DNA from: an uncultured Verrucomicrobiae bacterium
GTDB taxonomy: Bacteria > Verrucomicrobiota > Verrucomicrobiia > Chthoniobacterales > Chthoniobacteraceae
Direction of reading: 5' to 3'
NCBI GenBank assembly: GCA_963769025.1
Contig: CAVYKI010000010.1
Span: 1 to 64,000 of the forward strand
DNA length: 64,000 bases
Made by a program: the position numbers. Shown piece by piece: positions 24,001 to 30,000 of this stretch. Position 1 is the stretch's first letter; each line of letters begins with the position of its first letter.

Positions 24001-27000
24001 AGCACCGATGGCAGCGACGTGCTCCCGTTCCGCAGTTCGCTTTTCGAGCCCGTCGTCGAACTCGCCTGTCCCGTCACCGCTTGCGCGCTCCGCTATTCGT
24101 TCGAAGGCGGCTCCGTCGCGGACGAAGTCGCCTATTGGCGCGACATGACGCTCGCCCCTCACCTCCTCAACCTCCTCGGGAAATCCGGCGTCACGCTCGA
24201 CATCCACTTTGGCCCCTCATCGCGCCGCACCGGCGACCGCAAGACGCTCGCCCGCGATCTCCACGCCGAAGTCCGCACGCTCCTGCGCGGGACGGCTGCC
24301 TGACGCCCTCAGCGCACGCCCATCTCGCGCGCGGCGGCCTTCACGCCTTCGAGCAATGCGCGCCAGTCGTCGCGCGTCGTCCCCCACCCCGCGCTGAAGC
24401 GCAGTGCGCGCCCGGCATCCTCCGGCGAAACGCCCATCGCCGTCAGCACGTGCGACGGCTTCTCCTTCCCGCTCGCGCATGCCGATCCGGTCGAGACCGC
24501 AAAGCCCAGCTTGTCCATCACCACCACCCAGCGGCGGCGGCAATCGGGCGTCTCGGGCAGGATCACCGAGACCGTGTTCCAAAGCCGCTCCACGCCTGCG
24601 CCGAGCACGCGCACACCCGGCAGCGCCGCGGTGAGTCCGCTCTCAAATTCCTCGCGCCATCCGAGCCGTTCATCGAGCGCACCGCCGCGGATCGCCGCCT
24701 CGCGCTCCTCCAGCACCGCGAGCATGGCGAGGACGCCGGCAACATTTTCCGTCCCCGCGCGACGCCCCTCCTCCTGCGGCCCGCCACGCAGCAGCGGCGG
24801 AAAATCCGCGGGGCATTTCAAAAACCCGACGCCCTGCGGCCCGCCGAACTTGTGCGCGCACCCGCTCACAAAATCACACGCACCGAGCCCTGCCGCCGGC
24901 AGACGCCCGATCCACTGCGCCGCATCGCAAAACAGCGGGACGCCATTTTCCCCGCAGACCGAAAGCGCCTCCCGCCACGGCTGCAGCACGCCCGTCTCGT
25001 TGTTCGCCGCCATCAGCGCGACGAGCTGCGGACTTCGCACCGTCGAACCGCGGAAGCTCCACCACTCCCGTAGCCGCCGACGGAAGGAGGCGGGCTGATT
25101 TTCCCCTCAGGGGTTCCAGCACGCACGGATGCTCGATCGCCGAAGCCAACACGTCATCGAACTGCGCGATCACCGCATTCGCCGATTCCGTCGCGCCGCT
25201 CGTAAATACGATCTGATCCGCGCCACACCCCAAAATCGTCGCGAGCCGCTCCCGCGCATTTTGCAGCGCCGCCTCCGCCCGCTGTCCCGTCCGGTGCGGC
25301 GACGACGGATTTCCCGGGAAGCGCTCCACCGCCTCCAGCCACGCGCGCTTCGCCGTCCCGGAGAGCGGATGCGTGGCGTTGTGGTCAAAGTAGAGCATGT
25401 CCGGGCCGAGTTAGCGCGAGCGCTGCCGCGAAGGCAATGGCTTCAGCGCCACATTCCACTCGCGCCGCAGCGCGTGATGCCCGATGTTCCGCGGCCCGAT
25501 GAGCGGCCCCGCGACATCCTTTTACAAACGCAGCAACTTCGTCACCCACCTGCCGGTGGAGTGTCTCTACAGCCCGTCGCATTTCTGGATCGCGAAAATG
25601 GGCGGCGCACGCCTGCGGATCGGCTTCACGAAATTTGCCACGCGGATGCTCGGCGAGATCGTCGAGGTGCGGTTTGAAAAGGCGCCCGGCTCGGCGCTCG
25701 CGGGCGGCGAAATCGTCGGGAGCATCGAGGGCTTCAAGGCCATCAGCGACATCTACTCGTGCGCGGGCGGCACCTTCGCCGGGGGCAATCCCGCGCTCGC
25801 GGCCGGCGTGGAAGCCGTCGGGAAAGATCCCTACGGCGCAGGTTGGCTCTACGAAGTGGACGGTGAGCCGGATGATAAGTGCGTGCCGCTCGAACAATAC
25901 CGGGCGATGCTCGACACCACGATCGACAAGATTCTCGAAAAACAAAAAGCCGAAGCCGACTGATGCCCACCTCGCAATCCGACCCACAGCCATCCGCACT
26001 CGAAGGCCCGCTACATCATGATCGGTGGCTTCCTCGGCGCGGGAAAGACGACCGCCGTCGCCGCAGTCGCGCAGCATTTTGCCGCACAGGGATTGCGCGT
26101 CGGGCTGATCACGAACGACCAGGGCAGTGAACTCGTGGACACCACGATGCTGCGTGCGCGCGGTTTTGCGACGGAGGAAATCACCGGCGGATGCTTCTGC
26201 TGCCGCTTCAACACGCTCGACGGACGCCGCGCAGAAGCTGACGGACGCTTCGCGGCCGGACGTGTTCATCGCCGAGCCGGTCGGGAGCTGCACGGATCTC
26301 GTCGCGACGGTCACCTATCCGCTGCGGCGCATCTACGGCGACTCTTTTGCCATCGCGCCGCTGAGCGTGCTCGTGGACCCGATTCGCGCGGAGCGTTTCC
26401 TCGGTCTCGCGGCCGGCGGGAAGTTTTCCGACAAGGTCACCTACATCTACCGCAAGCAGCTCGAGGAGGCGGACATCATCGTGATCACCAAGAGCGATCT
26501 GCTCGATGCCGCGCGCCTCGTGGCCATCGGCGCAAAGCTCGCCGAGGAGTTTCCCCACGCGGAGATCCTCGCCGTCAGCGTGCGCAATGGCGACGGCCTC
26601 GCTCCGTGGCTGGAACTCCTCGCGACCGGCGAGCAGAGCCGCCGCGCGACGATGGAGGTGGACTACGAGCTTTACGCCGAAGGCGAGGCGCTGCTCGGCT
26701 GGCTGAATGCGACCGTGCAACTCGCCGCGCCCGCGGGCTTCGACGCCGATGCCACGCTGAAGACGATCGCCGCCGGCATCCAAGAGCGCCTCTCCGGCTC
26801 AGAGATCGCCCATTTGAAAATGACGCTCAACCCGGACAGCGGCCTCGGTGACATCGCCGCGGTGAACCTTGTCCGCAGTGATTTCGTCCCCGAGCTTTCG
26901 CTCACGCTCGAAGAGCCGGTGGAGAGCGGACAGCTCATCATCAACTGCCGCGCCGAGGCTGCGCCCGAGTCCATCCGCGATGCGGTGAACGAAACGATCG

Positions 27001-30000
27001 CCACACTGAACAGCGACACATTTTCCGCAAAGCTCGAACACCTAGAGTTTTTCCGCCCCGGCAAACCGGAGCCAACCCACCGCGACACAGTGTCCGCCTG
27101 ACATGAGCAAACCAGCGATTCTCTACTGCCACTGCCAGTACGCGCAGGTGGTGCCGAAGGAAGTGAAGGAAGCCGTGCTGCGGCGCCTTTGCGAGAGCGG
27201 CGTCGCGTTTGACGCCGTTGCGGACCTCTGCGAGATGGCCGCGCGGCGCGACCCGGCGCTCCGGCAGCTCGCGGCGAACGGCGCGGTGAAGATCGCCGCA
27301 TGCTTCCCGCGCGCGGTGAAGGGCCTCTTTCACCAATGCAACGCCGACCTCGCGCCGGACAAGGCCGAGGTGCTCAACATGCGCACGCTCACCGCGGATG
27401 AAATCTGTGCGAGGCTCGCGGCGGACGATCTTTTGCCGAATCTGCCCGAGCGCGAAACGAAAAACGCGCAACCCGCGACTCCGAACCCCCAAACCTGATC
27501 CGCCATGTCACTGAAAGACGAATCCACCCTCCGCGTCGTGCTCTACGAAGGCGATGGCGCCGCTCCGCTCGACAACACTTTCGCGACGATGGCCGCGCTG
27601 CTGGAGAAAGGCTACGCCGTCACGCGCAGCACGGCGGGCGGCAAGGTCGCGCCGCAGGAAAAAGGTTCGCTCGTCGTGCTCGGGAAATTTTCCGGCGGTT
27701 CCGCACCTGCGGCGGAGGACGGAGGCGGCGCGGTGAAGGTGCGCATGCACGACATCACGAACCGCGACATCGCAGGCGTGACGGCGCTCGTCGAGGAGGA
27801 GCGCGCGGCGGCGGGCGCAGCACAGCATGGCGCGTGGAAGCCGTGGTTCCCGGTCATTGACTACGACCGCTGCACGAATTGCATGCAGTGTCTCAGCTTC
27901 TGCCTTTTCGGCGTGTACGGCGTGGATGGCGACAGCCACATCCAGGTGCAGAATAACGACAACTGCAAAACGAACTGCCCGGCGTGCTCGCGCGTGTGCC
28001 CGGAGGCGGCGATCATGTTTCCGAAATACAAGGCGGGGCCGATCAATGGCGACATGGTGAGCGCGACGGATCTCAAGCGCGAGAAGATGAAGATCGACAT
28101 CTCGGCGCTGCTCGGCGGCGACGTTTATTCCATGCTGCGCGAGCGGACGCTGAAGGCGCAAAGCCGGTTCAGCAAGGAGCGCGACGCCGACAAGGCGCTG
28201 ACCGAACGGCAGAAGTGCCTCGTAAAACTCGCGGCCGCCGGGGACATTCCCGCCGAGGTGCTGATGTCGCTGCCGTCGCCCGAGGAAATCGCACGCCGCG
28301 CCGAGGAAGCGAAGGCGAAGGCCGCGGCCGCGCTTGCCGCACAGAAGAGCTAGCGGAGCGGCGCCCAGCGGGCTTCCTCAGGACGCCTTGACCGATTTCG
28401 CCTTTTCTGTCGCAGTCCCGCGCCGCTGATCCTCCGACCCATGCTCCCACCGATCGCCTCCCTGCCTCCCGTCGCGGTGTCCTATTGGCCGTTCGTCATC
28501 CTCGCCGTGTCGGTGGTGTTCATCATCGTCACCATCACCAAGCTGCGCATGCACCCCTTCATCGCGCTGATCCTCGCGGCGTTCCTCGCGGGGTTCATGA
28601 CGGTGGACTTCAAGCCCGAGCAACTCGCGAAGGTCTCCACGAGCATGCGAGGAGACGCGAAGGCCAACTCCTGGGTCGCCGCCGTGGAACTCACCGCGGT
28701 CGAATTCGGCGGCGCCGCCGGGGCCATCGCCATCTCGATCGGCCTCGCGTCGATCATCGGCCTGTGCCTCATGGAAAGCGGGGCGGCGGACAAGGTCGTG
28801 CGCCGGTTCCTCGGCGCATTCGGGGAGAAAAGGGCGGGGCTCGCGCTGCTGGCGAGCACGTACGTGCTGTCGATCCCCATCTTCTTTGACACGATGTTCA
28901 TGCTCATGGTGCCGCTGGCGAAGGCGCTCCGGCTGCGAACGGGCAAGGACTACATGCTCTACCTCATGTGCATTTGCATCGGCGGAGTTGTCACGCATTC
29001 GCTCACCGTGCCGCACCCCGGACCGCTCGCGATGGTGGACAATCTGCGCGTGGACCCGGGCATCTCGCTGCTCGTCGGCATCGCCGCGGGCATCCTGCCG
29101 TGCATCGCGGGGTTTTTCGTCGCCCGCTGGCTGAACGGACGCACGGAAATCCCGCTGCGCGAAACGCCCGGCGTGACGCTCGATGAACTCAAGGGCATCT
29201 CCAACCAGCCCGAGAGCGCGCTGCCCTCCTTCTTCTGGAGCATCACCCCGGTCATCCTCCCGATCCTCCTCATCACCGCGGCGTCGTTTTTCAAAATCAC
29301 CCAAGGCACTGCGGTCGAAGGCTGGTTCGGCGGCAGCGACACATTTGCCACCGCGGCGAAAGTCTCATTTTTTGTCGGCAACAAAAACATCGCCCTCGCC
29401 ATCGGCACCGTGATCGCGCTCTGGGTGCTGGCCCGGCAGCGGAACCTGAGCTTTGCCCGCATCGAGGCCCTCCTCGGCCCGCCCATCGAGACTGCGGGCG
29501 TGATCATCCTCATCACCGCCGCAGGCGGGGCGTTTGGCGGAATGCTCCGCAATGCGGGCGTCGGCGACGCCATCGCCGATGTCGCCAAGACCTACTCCAT
29601 TCCGCTGCTCGTCCTCGCGTGGCTCACCGCCGCCGTTATCCGCATCGCGCAGGGCTCCGCCACCGTGGCGATCCTCACCACCTCGGCGATCATCTGGCCG
29701 ATGATGGACCCCGCCGTCGCCGGCAACGCCCCGCTCGCGTACAATCCGATGTACGTCTTCCTGAGCATCGGCTTCGGCGCATTCTGCTGCTCGTGGATGA
29801 ACGACTCGGGCTTCTGGGTGGTGAACCGGCTCAGCGGAATGACCGAAAAGGAGACGCTGAAGAGCTGGACGGTCATGCTCACGGTGGTCTCGATCTTCGG
29901 CCTGCTGCTCACGCTCGGCATGGCGGCCATCCTGCCTTTGGCAAAATAGGCCGCGTTTTTGCCCCCCCGGCGCACGGATGGCCACCGGGGATCGCGGCGG

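What a model noticed while it worked through the whole genome (the two positions that open the first line are those of the whole stretch)
24309..28353. The orphan 'SHC-like' terpene cyclase of PVC bacteria belongs to a nine-gene pathway with a GcvH-type carrier, G3E GTPas [...]
C10:24309-28353 (NifS-like, GcvH-like with intact lipoyl Lys, CobW/G3E GTPase, Cys-rich CxC protein, 2x[4Fe-4S] ferredoxin) is the redox/carrier half of an unstudied terpenoid pathway. Its other genes lie elsewhere here: radical SAM/SPASM C9:778751-779999, Cys-rich-domain polyprenyl synthase C3:119290-121038, GGTase-beta-like prenyltransferase C3:985183-986070 and DxDD class II 'SHC-like' cyclase C6:660319-662155. In other Verrucomicrobiota/Planctomycetota the nine genes form one cluster.
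Evidence so far: Calls 36, 56: of 80 loci fetched with the ferredoxin, CxC protein in 69, G3E 30, GcvH-like 28, rSAM 27, polyprenyl synthase 27, NifS 22, prenyltransferase 20, SHC-like 11; all nine together in L090, L110 and L132 (Planctomycetales ZRK34). G000 has 52-90% identical orthologues of the eight queries taken from L062/L110. Though unlinked in Chthoniobacteraceae they co-occur: of 60 family genomes ferredoxin 29, prenyltransferase 32, GcvH-like 32; all 29 ferredoxin-positive have the prenyltransferase; prenyltransferase and GcvH-like agree in 58 of 60. Lipoyl Lys kept in 28 of 28 GcvH-like rows, canonical GcvH is a separate gene. CxC protein: 4 invariant Cys, pLDDT 92, best Foldseek hits HdrA (weak [...]
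(Added by a program. Inside this text positions count along the whole contig: contig position 1 is position 1 of the stretch shown here. "Call 12" and the like, gene names such as g00115 and contig names such as C1 are that model's own, and its searches are not shown. The text may have been shortened before it was handed on; [...] marks where a part breaks off. The agent that wrote the report below was given it as the finding of a first reader that could run no searches.)

Follow-up and report, generated by a model that had tools for sequence, protein, structure and literature searches.

The report
Orphan terpene-cyclase pathway with aerobic add-on
These five genes belong to a conserved bacterial pathway that probably makes an unknown ring-bearing isoprenoid lipid without squalene; two are core electron carriers, and three look like a support kit kept mainly by oxygen-breathing species.

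Summary
The 'nine-gene pathway with a carrier' needs revising. In 252 Planctomycetota/Verrucomicrobiota genomes the SHC-like cyclase is in 38. All 38 also have the DUF116-polyprenyl synthase, the prenyltransferase-like barrel and a radical SAM enzyme; 37 have the ferredoxin. The radical SAM comes in two mutually exclusive types in Planctomycetota (23 + 6 = the 29 cyclase genomes, 0 of 92 others). One is related to the membrane-spanning-lipid synthase Mss; the other is a B12-type enzyme with archaeal relatives. This suggests radical C-C coupling in a lipid chain (inferred). GcvH-like and G3E genes occur together in only 24 of 38, and track heme-copper oxidase (23/24 versus 1/14). So GcvH-like is not an obligatory substrate carrier; more likely it gives redox or Fe-S support in aerobes. 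No product is known. The cyclase clade and neighbouring synthase are already in print; the scan found this operon before on other genomes. G000's copies carry frameshifts, probably assembly errors.

The parts
24309..25398 (-). NifS-like cysteine desulfurase (accessory), one frameshift near 25025-25057
   Evidence: Aminotran_5 in both frames; HSPs in two frames without stops; PLP-Lys and catalytic-Cys motifs kept in the 17 Verrucomicrobiota-type homologues
25484..25963 (+). GcvH-like lipoyl-domain protein (accessory); Glu(-3), Lys85, Gly(+11) invariant
   Evidence: Pfam GCV_H 66 bits; orthologue below the TIGR00527 cut-off (79.6 vs 115.85); alignments
25963..27101 (+). G3E/COG0523-type P-loop GTPase with CxCC motif (accessory), frameshifted near 26220 and probably near its start
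   Evidence: Pfam cobW; CFCC in 23 of 23 orthologues; closest relative aligns in three frames
27103..27498 (+). Small flavodoxin-like four-Cys protein, N-terminal half of the CxC-ferredoxin unit (core)
   Evidence: C9, C11, C43, C67 invariant in 43 rows; model pLDDT 92.1; fused to the ferredoxin in L126, L128-130 and most B12-type loci
27505..28353 (+). 2x[4Fe-4S] ferredoxin-domain protein (core)
   Evidence: Fer4 families; both Cys motifs in 163-164 of 164 ORFs; in 37 of 38 cyclase genomes and 0 of 214 others

Best explanation
A squalene-independent pathway to a cyclic isoprenoid lipid, with a five-protein core and an aerobe-linked add-on. Core (shown by co-occurrence): DUF116-fused polyprenyl diphosphate synthase, GGTase-beta-fold barrel, DxDD class II cyclase, one radical SAM enzyme, and the CxC-ferredoxin unit. 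Inferred steps: the synthase makes a head-to-tail chain of C20 or more; the cyclase protonates its distal alkene and closes rings; the barrel, which has lost the zinc site, handles the diphosphate end (transfer or ionisation); the radical SAM enzyme joins two unactivated carbons (chain-to-chain or an extra ring), fed with electrons by CxC-ferredoxin. The window holds the electron unit plus the add-on. GcvH-like (probably lipoylated), the CxCC GTPase and a desulfurase most likely supply reducing power, sulfur or metal to keep the many Fe-S centres working where oxygen is present. The order of steps and the product are not shown.
For: Cyclase in 29 of 121 Planctomycetota and 9 of 131 Verrucomicrobiota genomes. 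Ferredoxin in 28 and 9, all within those sets. In an 80-genome panel: barrel 38 of 38 and 0 of 42; synthase 38 of 38 and 1 of 42. rSAM: SPASM/twitch type in 23, B12-type in 6, no overlap, together exactly the 29; the same 9 in Verrucomicrobiota. 47 of 51 close B12-type metagenome loci have the ferredoxin directly upstream. PDxDD in 120 of 120 homologues; first DDxxD preceded by small residues in 102 of 102 synthase ORFs. The rSAM's nearest relatives fit the published Mss blocks. Two cyclase genomes (G082, G065) of five tested have no SQS_PSY match. GcvH-like and G3E coincide in 24 of 38, adjacent in 36 of 39 loci holding both; COX1 family in 23 of those 24 against 1 of the other 14. Desulfurases of two lineages sit beside the cluster.
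Against: No product, enzyme assay or RNA evidence. No characterised Mss or Grs sequence could be compared directly; the pathway rSAMs form their own clade, 26-36% identical to the Mss-like tier, with VEPC in only 12 of 50 and block VI changed. Cultured planctomycetes in Table S21 of PMC13159169 make no diabolic acids. G000, G001 and G145 do have SQS_PSY genes, so squalene is not excluded there. The oxygen link is confounded by kinship and has exceptions (G151, G133); GcvH-like also sits beside the B12 type in six loci. One genome without the pathway has the G3E (G126) and one the synthase (G034). The second DDxxD is ND in 22 and unmatched in 22 of 102 synthases. Absence in MAGs is not proof.
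Confidence: 0.6

Rival explanations
1. One reading: the GcvH-like protein is a substrate carrier; a prenyl or acyl chain is tethered to its lysine and processed there by rSAM, barrel or cyclase.
For: Lys with lipoyl-type context invariant; family-specific N- and C-terminal extensions; never seen outside pathway genomes (0 of 42); barrel has the protein-prenyltransferase fold (Z 26.0, rmsd 2.8, 265 aligned).
Against: Not found in 14 of 38 genomes with the core; no ligase or transferase among conserved neighbours; occurs with either rSAM type.
Confidence: 0.13
2. Sulfur insertion: the rSAM puts sulfur into an isoprenoid, LipA-style, with NifS and the lipoyl protein regenerating a sacrificial cluster.
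For: Desulfurase recruited twice; three conserved C-terminal Cys in the SPASM/twitch type; weak MiaB/RimO hits for the B12 type.
Against: The B12 type has only the three rSAM Cys invariant in 5 rows; no NifS beside any of the 51 B12-type metagenome loci; nearest relatives are Mss-like.
Confidence: 0.08
3. The rSAM does simpler tailoring (methylation, desaturation or adenosylation, as HpnP/HpnR/HpnH do for hopanoids), and the product is a hopanoid-like lipid.
For: Cyclase keeps DxDD and aligns to A. acidocaldarius SHC (E 1e-24); B12-type rSAMs are often methylases (own knowledge).
Against: HpnH score 36 against cut-off 225; a methylase would not normally be replaced by a non-B12 Mss relative; tailoring enzymes are usually patchy, this one is in 38 of 38.
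Confidence: 0.14
4. In G000 itself the pathway is decaying and the window genes are pseudogenes.
For: 5 of 9 pathway genes frameshifted against 17 of 88 other genes (binomial p 0.017); cluster scattered over four contigs.
Against: No in-frame stop in any pathway HSP; rpoB and cox1 are also in pieces; relatives keep intact copies.
Confidence: 0.12

Closest known systems
'SHC-like' / unknown-function clade of class II cyclases (Santana-Molina 2020, PMC7306690; McShea 2025, PMC12324236)
   Same: Divergent two-domain cyclase in PVC bacteria with catalytic residues kept and a polyprenyl synthase nearby; function undemonstrated.
   Different: The passages read do not mention the rSAM, ferredoxin, barrel, GcvH-like, G3E or NifS; supplement searches for radical, prenyltrans, GCV_H, cobW, Fer4 and DUF116 gave 0. 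Figure S10 is a picture and may show more.
Epoxy-polyprenyl cyclases Lon15, AtoE, Bra4, PlaT2
   Same: Sister clade according to PMC12324236; head-to-tail polyprenyl substrates.
   Different: They use epoxidised substrates; here DxDD is intact, no epoxidase is a conserved neighbour, and the pathway occurs in genomes without heme-copper oxidase.
Mss, membrane-spanning lipid synthase (PMC13159169)
   Same: Blocks I-IV as described fit; nearest homologues in the sample fit all blocks.
   Different: Separate clade (95/99), about 400 aa against 446, changed blocks V-VI, isoprenoid rather than fatty-acid context.
GrsA/GrsB GDGT ring synthases
   Same: N-terminal B12-type domain, rSAM core, no auxiliary cluster, C-terminal helix as described in PMC13459092; nearest relatives lie in archaeal-looking contigs. 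The family likeness itself is recalled.
   Different: No Grs sequence could be compared; bacterial, cyclase-linked context.
Hopanoid pathway (HpnCDE/Sqs, Shc, HpnH)
   Same: Class II cyclase plus radical SAM.
   Different: Shc score 102 against 431, HpnH 36 against 225; own prenyl synthase; no hpn genes among conserved neighbours.
GcvH / lipoate-binding proteins (LbpA of sHdr systems, recalled)
   Same: Lipoyl-domain fold and lysine context.
   Different: Below GcvH cut-offs, no gcvT/gcvP or sHdr genes in the cluster; HdrA likeness of CxC is weak.

Membership tests
Squalene-hopene cyclase (TIGR01507) | Score above the curated cut-off | tested here: not met
   L080 orthologue 102 bits vs 431.1
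Class II terpene cyclase | DxDD acid motif in a two-domain alpha/alpha toroid | tested here: met
   PDxDD in 120 of 120 homologues and 93 of 93 locus ORFs, some genes counted twice; both SQHop domains
'SHC-like' clade | Divergent PVC cyclase with catalytic residues and a polyprenyl synthase nearby | tested here: met
   against the description
'SHC-like' clade | Placement in the published tree | not tested
Mss | Blocks I-IV (CNxxCxGC, GGEP, Ser/Arg/Gly block, block IV residues) | tested here: met
   50, 50 and 48 of 50 ORFs for I-III; block IV by eye in A3; control held only one other rSAM
Mss | Block V VEPC and block VI with three prolines | tested here: not met
   VEPC 12 of 50, looser form 45 of 50; block VI replaced by GC-x3-ExP in 45 of 50
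Mss | At least 30% identity and E <= 1e-50 to the characterised enzymes; diabolic acid formation | not testable with these tools
   no characterised sequence obtainable; L080 is 28.7-32.9% identical to the Mss-like tier
Grs ring synthase | B12-binding N-terminal domain | tested here: inconclusive
   TIGR04013 62-78 bits vs 251; no Pfam B12 domain
Grs ring synthase | Homology to GrsA/GrsB and ring formation | not testable with these tools
   resemblance recalled only
Protein prenyltransferase beta subunit | alpha6/alpha6 barrel closest to GGTase/FTase beta | tested here: met
   Z 26.0, rmsd 2.8, 265 aligned to 1n4p_B; cyclases Z 18-20
Protein prenyltransferase beta subunit | Zinc ligands Asp, Cys, His (positions recalled) | tested here: not met
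   Asp229 kept, Leu231 and Tyr282 at the other two places in 22 rows; mapping by motif, not by superposition
GcvH (TIGR00527) | Score above cut-off | tested here: not met
   79.6 and 76.5 vs 115.85
Lipoyl-domain protein | Glu(-3), Lys, Gly(+11) (rule recalled) | tested here: met
   invariant in 21 and 24 rows; lipoylation itself not testable
G3E/COG0523 GTPase | P-loop and CxCC motif | tested here: met
   Pfam cobW 91 bits; CFCC 23 of 23
HdrA N-terminal domain | Significant sequence or structure match of CxC | tested here: inconclusive
   Foldseek E 0.017; hhalign probability 22.6 over 37 columns; hmmsearch 4 bits; four Cys similarly spaced

The most novel reading that the evidence does not exclude
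An oxygen-independent bacterial route in which a radical SAM enzyme forms a carbon-carbon bond between unactivated carbons of polyprenyl chains, solved twice (Mss-related and Grs-like enzymes swap), and a class II cyclase adds rings, giving a polycyclic and possibly membrane-spanning isoprenoid lipid; aerobes added a lipoyl-protein/GTPase/desulfurase kit to run it under oxygen. It could be the source of an orphan polycyclic biomarker.
Probability: 0.25. Interest if true: 0.9.

Novelty: new variant of a known kind. Interest (0 to 1): 0.66.

Why it matters
The substrate of the SHC-like clade is a stated open question that bears on cyclase evolution and on orphan lipid fossils (PMC7306690, PMC12324236). 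The result gives a minimal five-protein set to reconstitute, says a radical step is required, and separates it from an add-on needed mainly by aerobes. It also gives a testable role for an unassigned GcvH paralogue, a G3E GTPase subfamily and DUF116.

Tried and rejected
No RNA holder listed for the window stretch and no run with half its words; no reads were laid. Complex prediction for G3E with GcvH-like was not available, so binding is open. CxC: no PDB sequence hit of meaning, VIA-align best Z 6.9, generic flavodoxin-like folds; the 150 best of 697 representatives are the family and its fusions, unnamed. No longer GcvH-like fusions at E 1e-25, weak evidence. No tenth conserved neighbour in 80 loci. 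No sigma-70-like promoter; terminator-like sites at chance level. Paper searches with no hit; so no paper describing the whole cluster, its essentiality or a cheilanthane link was found in this library, which lacks most subscription journals. Data S3 of PMC13159169 held only taxon lists; its alignment figure is a picture; the SI PDF of PMC11214058 was too large to read and may bear on Grs/Gms homologues. My early idea that GcvH-like goes only with the SPASM-type rSAM was dropped. Dropped before counts: G013 (74 bits, not the cyclase); GcvH hits at 102-104 bits in G012, G136, G142 (taken as canonical); G016's partial G3E (210 bits); rSAM hits of 212 bits or less (Mss-like tier).
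Full report
Observation. The window is G000:C10:1-64000. It holds a NifS-like gene on the minus strand (24309-25398, two frames) and, divergent from it, four tightly packed plus-strand genes: GcvH-like (25484-25963), a G3E/CobW GTPase (25963-27101, frameshifted), a four-Cys protein without a Pfam family (27103-27498) and a 2x[4Fe-4S] ferredoxin (27505-28353). 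The radical SAM gene, DUF116-polyprenyl synthase, prenyltransferase-like barrel and SHC-like cyclase lie on C9, C3, C3 and C6 as stated. Among 80 loci fetched with the ferredoxin, the partners appear in 69 (CxC), 30 (G3E), 29 (synthase; one is an ordinary one), 28 (GcvH-like), 27 (rSAM), 21 (NifS), 21 (barrel) and 11 (cyclase); five loci hold all nine. Clustering of all other ORFs gave no tenth conserved gene.

Which genes are core. I sampled 121 Planctomycetota and 131 Verrucomicrobiota genomes evenly. The cyclase is in 29 and 9. The ferredoxin is in 28 and 9, all inside those sets; the miss is G016, whose contig ends inside the cluster. In Verrucomicrobiota the nine genomes span G000 and six other families, and the genes are often on different contigs. 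On a panel of all 38 positives and 42 of the 214 negatives, the barrel is in 38 and 0, the synthase in 38 and 1 (G034, no other pathway gene nearby). CxC and ferredoxin are one unit: split here, fused with the four Cys in L126, L128-130 and most B12-type loci, fused with a Cys-poor version in L131-145. Kin are not independent, but the match holds across two phyla and without linkage.

The radical SAM step. In the 121 Planctomycetota genomes the SPASM/twitch-type orthologue (378 bits or more) is in 23 and a B12-type enzyme in 6; they never co-occur, together they are exactly the 29 cyclase genomes, and none of the other 92 has either. In Verrucomicrobiota the first type is in the same 9 genomes as the cyclase; the B12 type was not searched there. 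Of 80 metagenome loci fetched with the B12 type, 51 are close relatives: 47 have the ferredoxin directly upstream and 50 have some pathway gene; the 29 distant ones have none and lie among archaeal-looking genes. The next tier of relatives of the SPASM type (12 fetched) fits the six Mss blocks described in the supplement of PMC13159169 (passages), with VEPC in 11 of 12, and has no pathway genes nearby. The pathway enzymes match blocks I-III in 50, 50 and 48 of 50 ORFs but differ in V and VI, and form their own clade (95/99), 26-36% identical to that tier; the outgroups are long branches, so a sister relation is not shown. They are Mss-related, not Mss. The B12 type has the layout described for GrsA/B in PMC13459092 (section 2.4), but the family likeness is recalled and untested. 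Two unrelated enzymes whose nearest known kinds couple unactivated carbons in lipids replacing each other is my reason to infer C-C bond formation; I put that step at about even odds. Against it, the cultured planctomycetes in Table S21 make no diabolic acids.

The isoprenoid enzymes. PDxDD is in 120 of 120 cyclase homologues. All 102 synthase ORFs keep the first DDxxD with small residues before it, which by established rules points to C20 or longer; the second motif is DD in 58, ND in 22 and unmatched in 22; CxxCxxC of DUF116 is in 100. The barrel model (pLDDT 96.7) is closest to GGTase-I beta (Z 26.0, rmsd 2.8, 265 aligned; cyclases Z 18-20) but lacks two of three zinc ligands and any DxDD, keeping three acidic and several aromatic residues (ligand positions recalled). 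It is next to the synthase in 70 of 74 loci holding both. G000 has no second cyclase. SQS_PSY genes are in G000, G001 and G145 but were not found in G082 or G065 (5 tested).

The add-on, which is most of this window. GcvH-like orthologues are in 24 of 38 pathway genomes and 0 of 42 others; the G3E is in the same 24, plus G126 outside the pathway and a partial hit in G016. A COX1-family gene is in 23 of those 24 and 1 of the other 14. The desulfurase beside the cluster is of one lineage in Verrucomicrobiota (45-70% to L005) and of others in Planctomycetota (28-34%), so it was recruited more than once; I did not tally it genome-wide. A required substrate carrier should not be missing from 14 genomes with the core. 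The lipoylation context is intact. The best reading is redox, sulfur or metal support for the Fe-S proteins in aerobes; whether the lipoyl arm passes electrons or sulfur is open. Some clusters without the add-on have NuoEF-like or GltD-like oxidoreductases nearby (6 and 7 of 71 loci), weak support at most. The HdrA likeness of CxC stays weak.

State of G000. Five of nine pathway genes are frameshifted, against 17 of 88 other genes (p 0.017). There are no in-frame stops, and rpoB and cox1 are also broken. Indel errors are the likelier cause, decay is not excluded.

Prior knowledge. PMC7306690 (passages and supplement passages) names the SHC-like clade and notes the nearby polyprenyl synthase. 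PMC12324236 (passages) calls its function undemonstrated and places it sister to epoxy-polyprenyl cyclases. PMC5898192 (section 3.6) notes the DUF116 fusion. PMC11214058 was seen as passages only. Searches found no paper on the whole cluster. Eight earlier notes of this scan describe the same operon on other genomes; a word search for Mss with it gave none.

Verdict. A real, conserved and uncharacterised terpenoid pathway; five core proteins rather than nine, two interchangeable radical SAM types, and an oxygen-linked add-on. New variant of a known kind; interest 0.66.

Noticed in passing
window 22744-24303 (+): GNAT (Acetyltransf_5) gene followed by an acyltransferase gene, converging on the NifS-like gene; resembles an amino-acid lipid pair (recalled). 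Not a conserved neighbour of the cluster.
   Followed up: no
L183:3052-4380 and 33 other loci: A PQQ_2 beta-propeller gene lies near the cluster in 34 of 71 loci of the fused-ferredoxin or B12 types; the family is very common in these phyla, so this may be background.
   Followed up: partly
L177:13276-14580, L130, L143, L145, L147, L171, L187: A GT4 glycosyltransferase lies in or beside the cluster in 7 of 71 loci, a possible head-group step in some lineages.
   Followed up: no
L254-L265: Twelve Planctomycetota genomes without the pathway carry radical SAM genes that fit the published Mss blocks: candidate membrane-spanning lipid makers.
   Followed up: partly
L151:3884-5185: An Mss-like radical SAM gene on an enterobacterial plasmid next to IS66.
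   Followed up: no
L233:1602-3131 (G034): DUF116-polyprenyl synthase homologue in a genome where the cyclase, ferredoxin, barrel and rSAM were not found.
   Followed up: partly
L240:8958-10556 (G126): The G3E subfamily also occurs in a genome without the pathway.
   Followed up: no
L131:6847-8187: A HemN-like radical SAM gene directly upstream of gcvH-like in one cluster.
   Followed up: no
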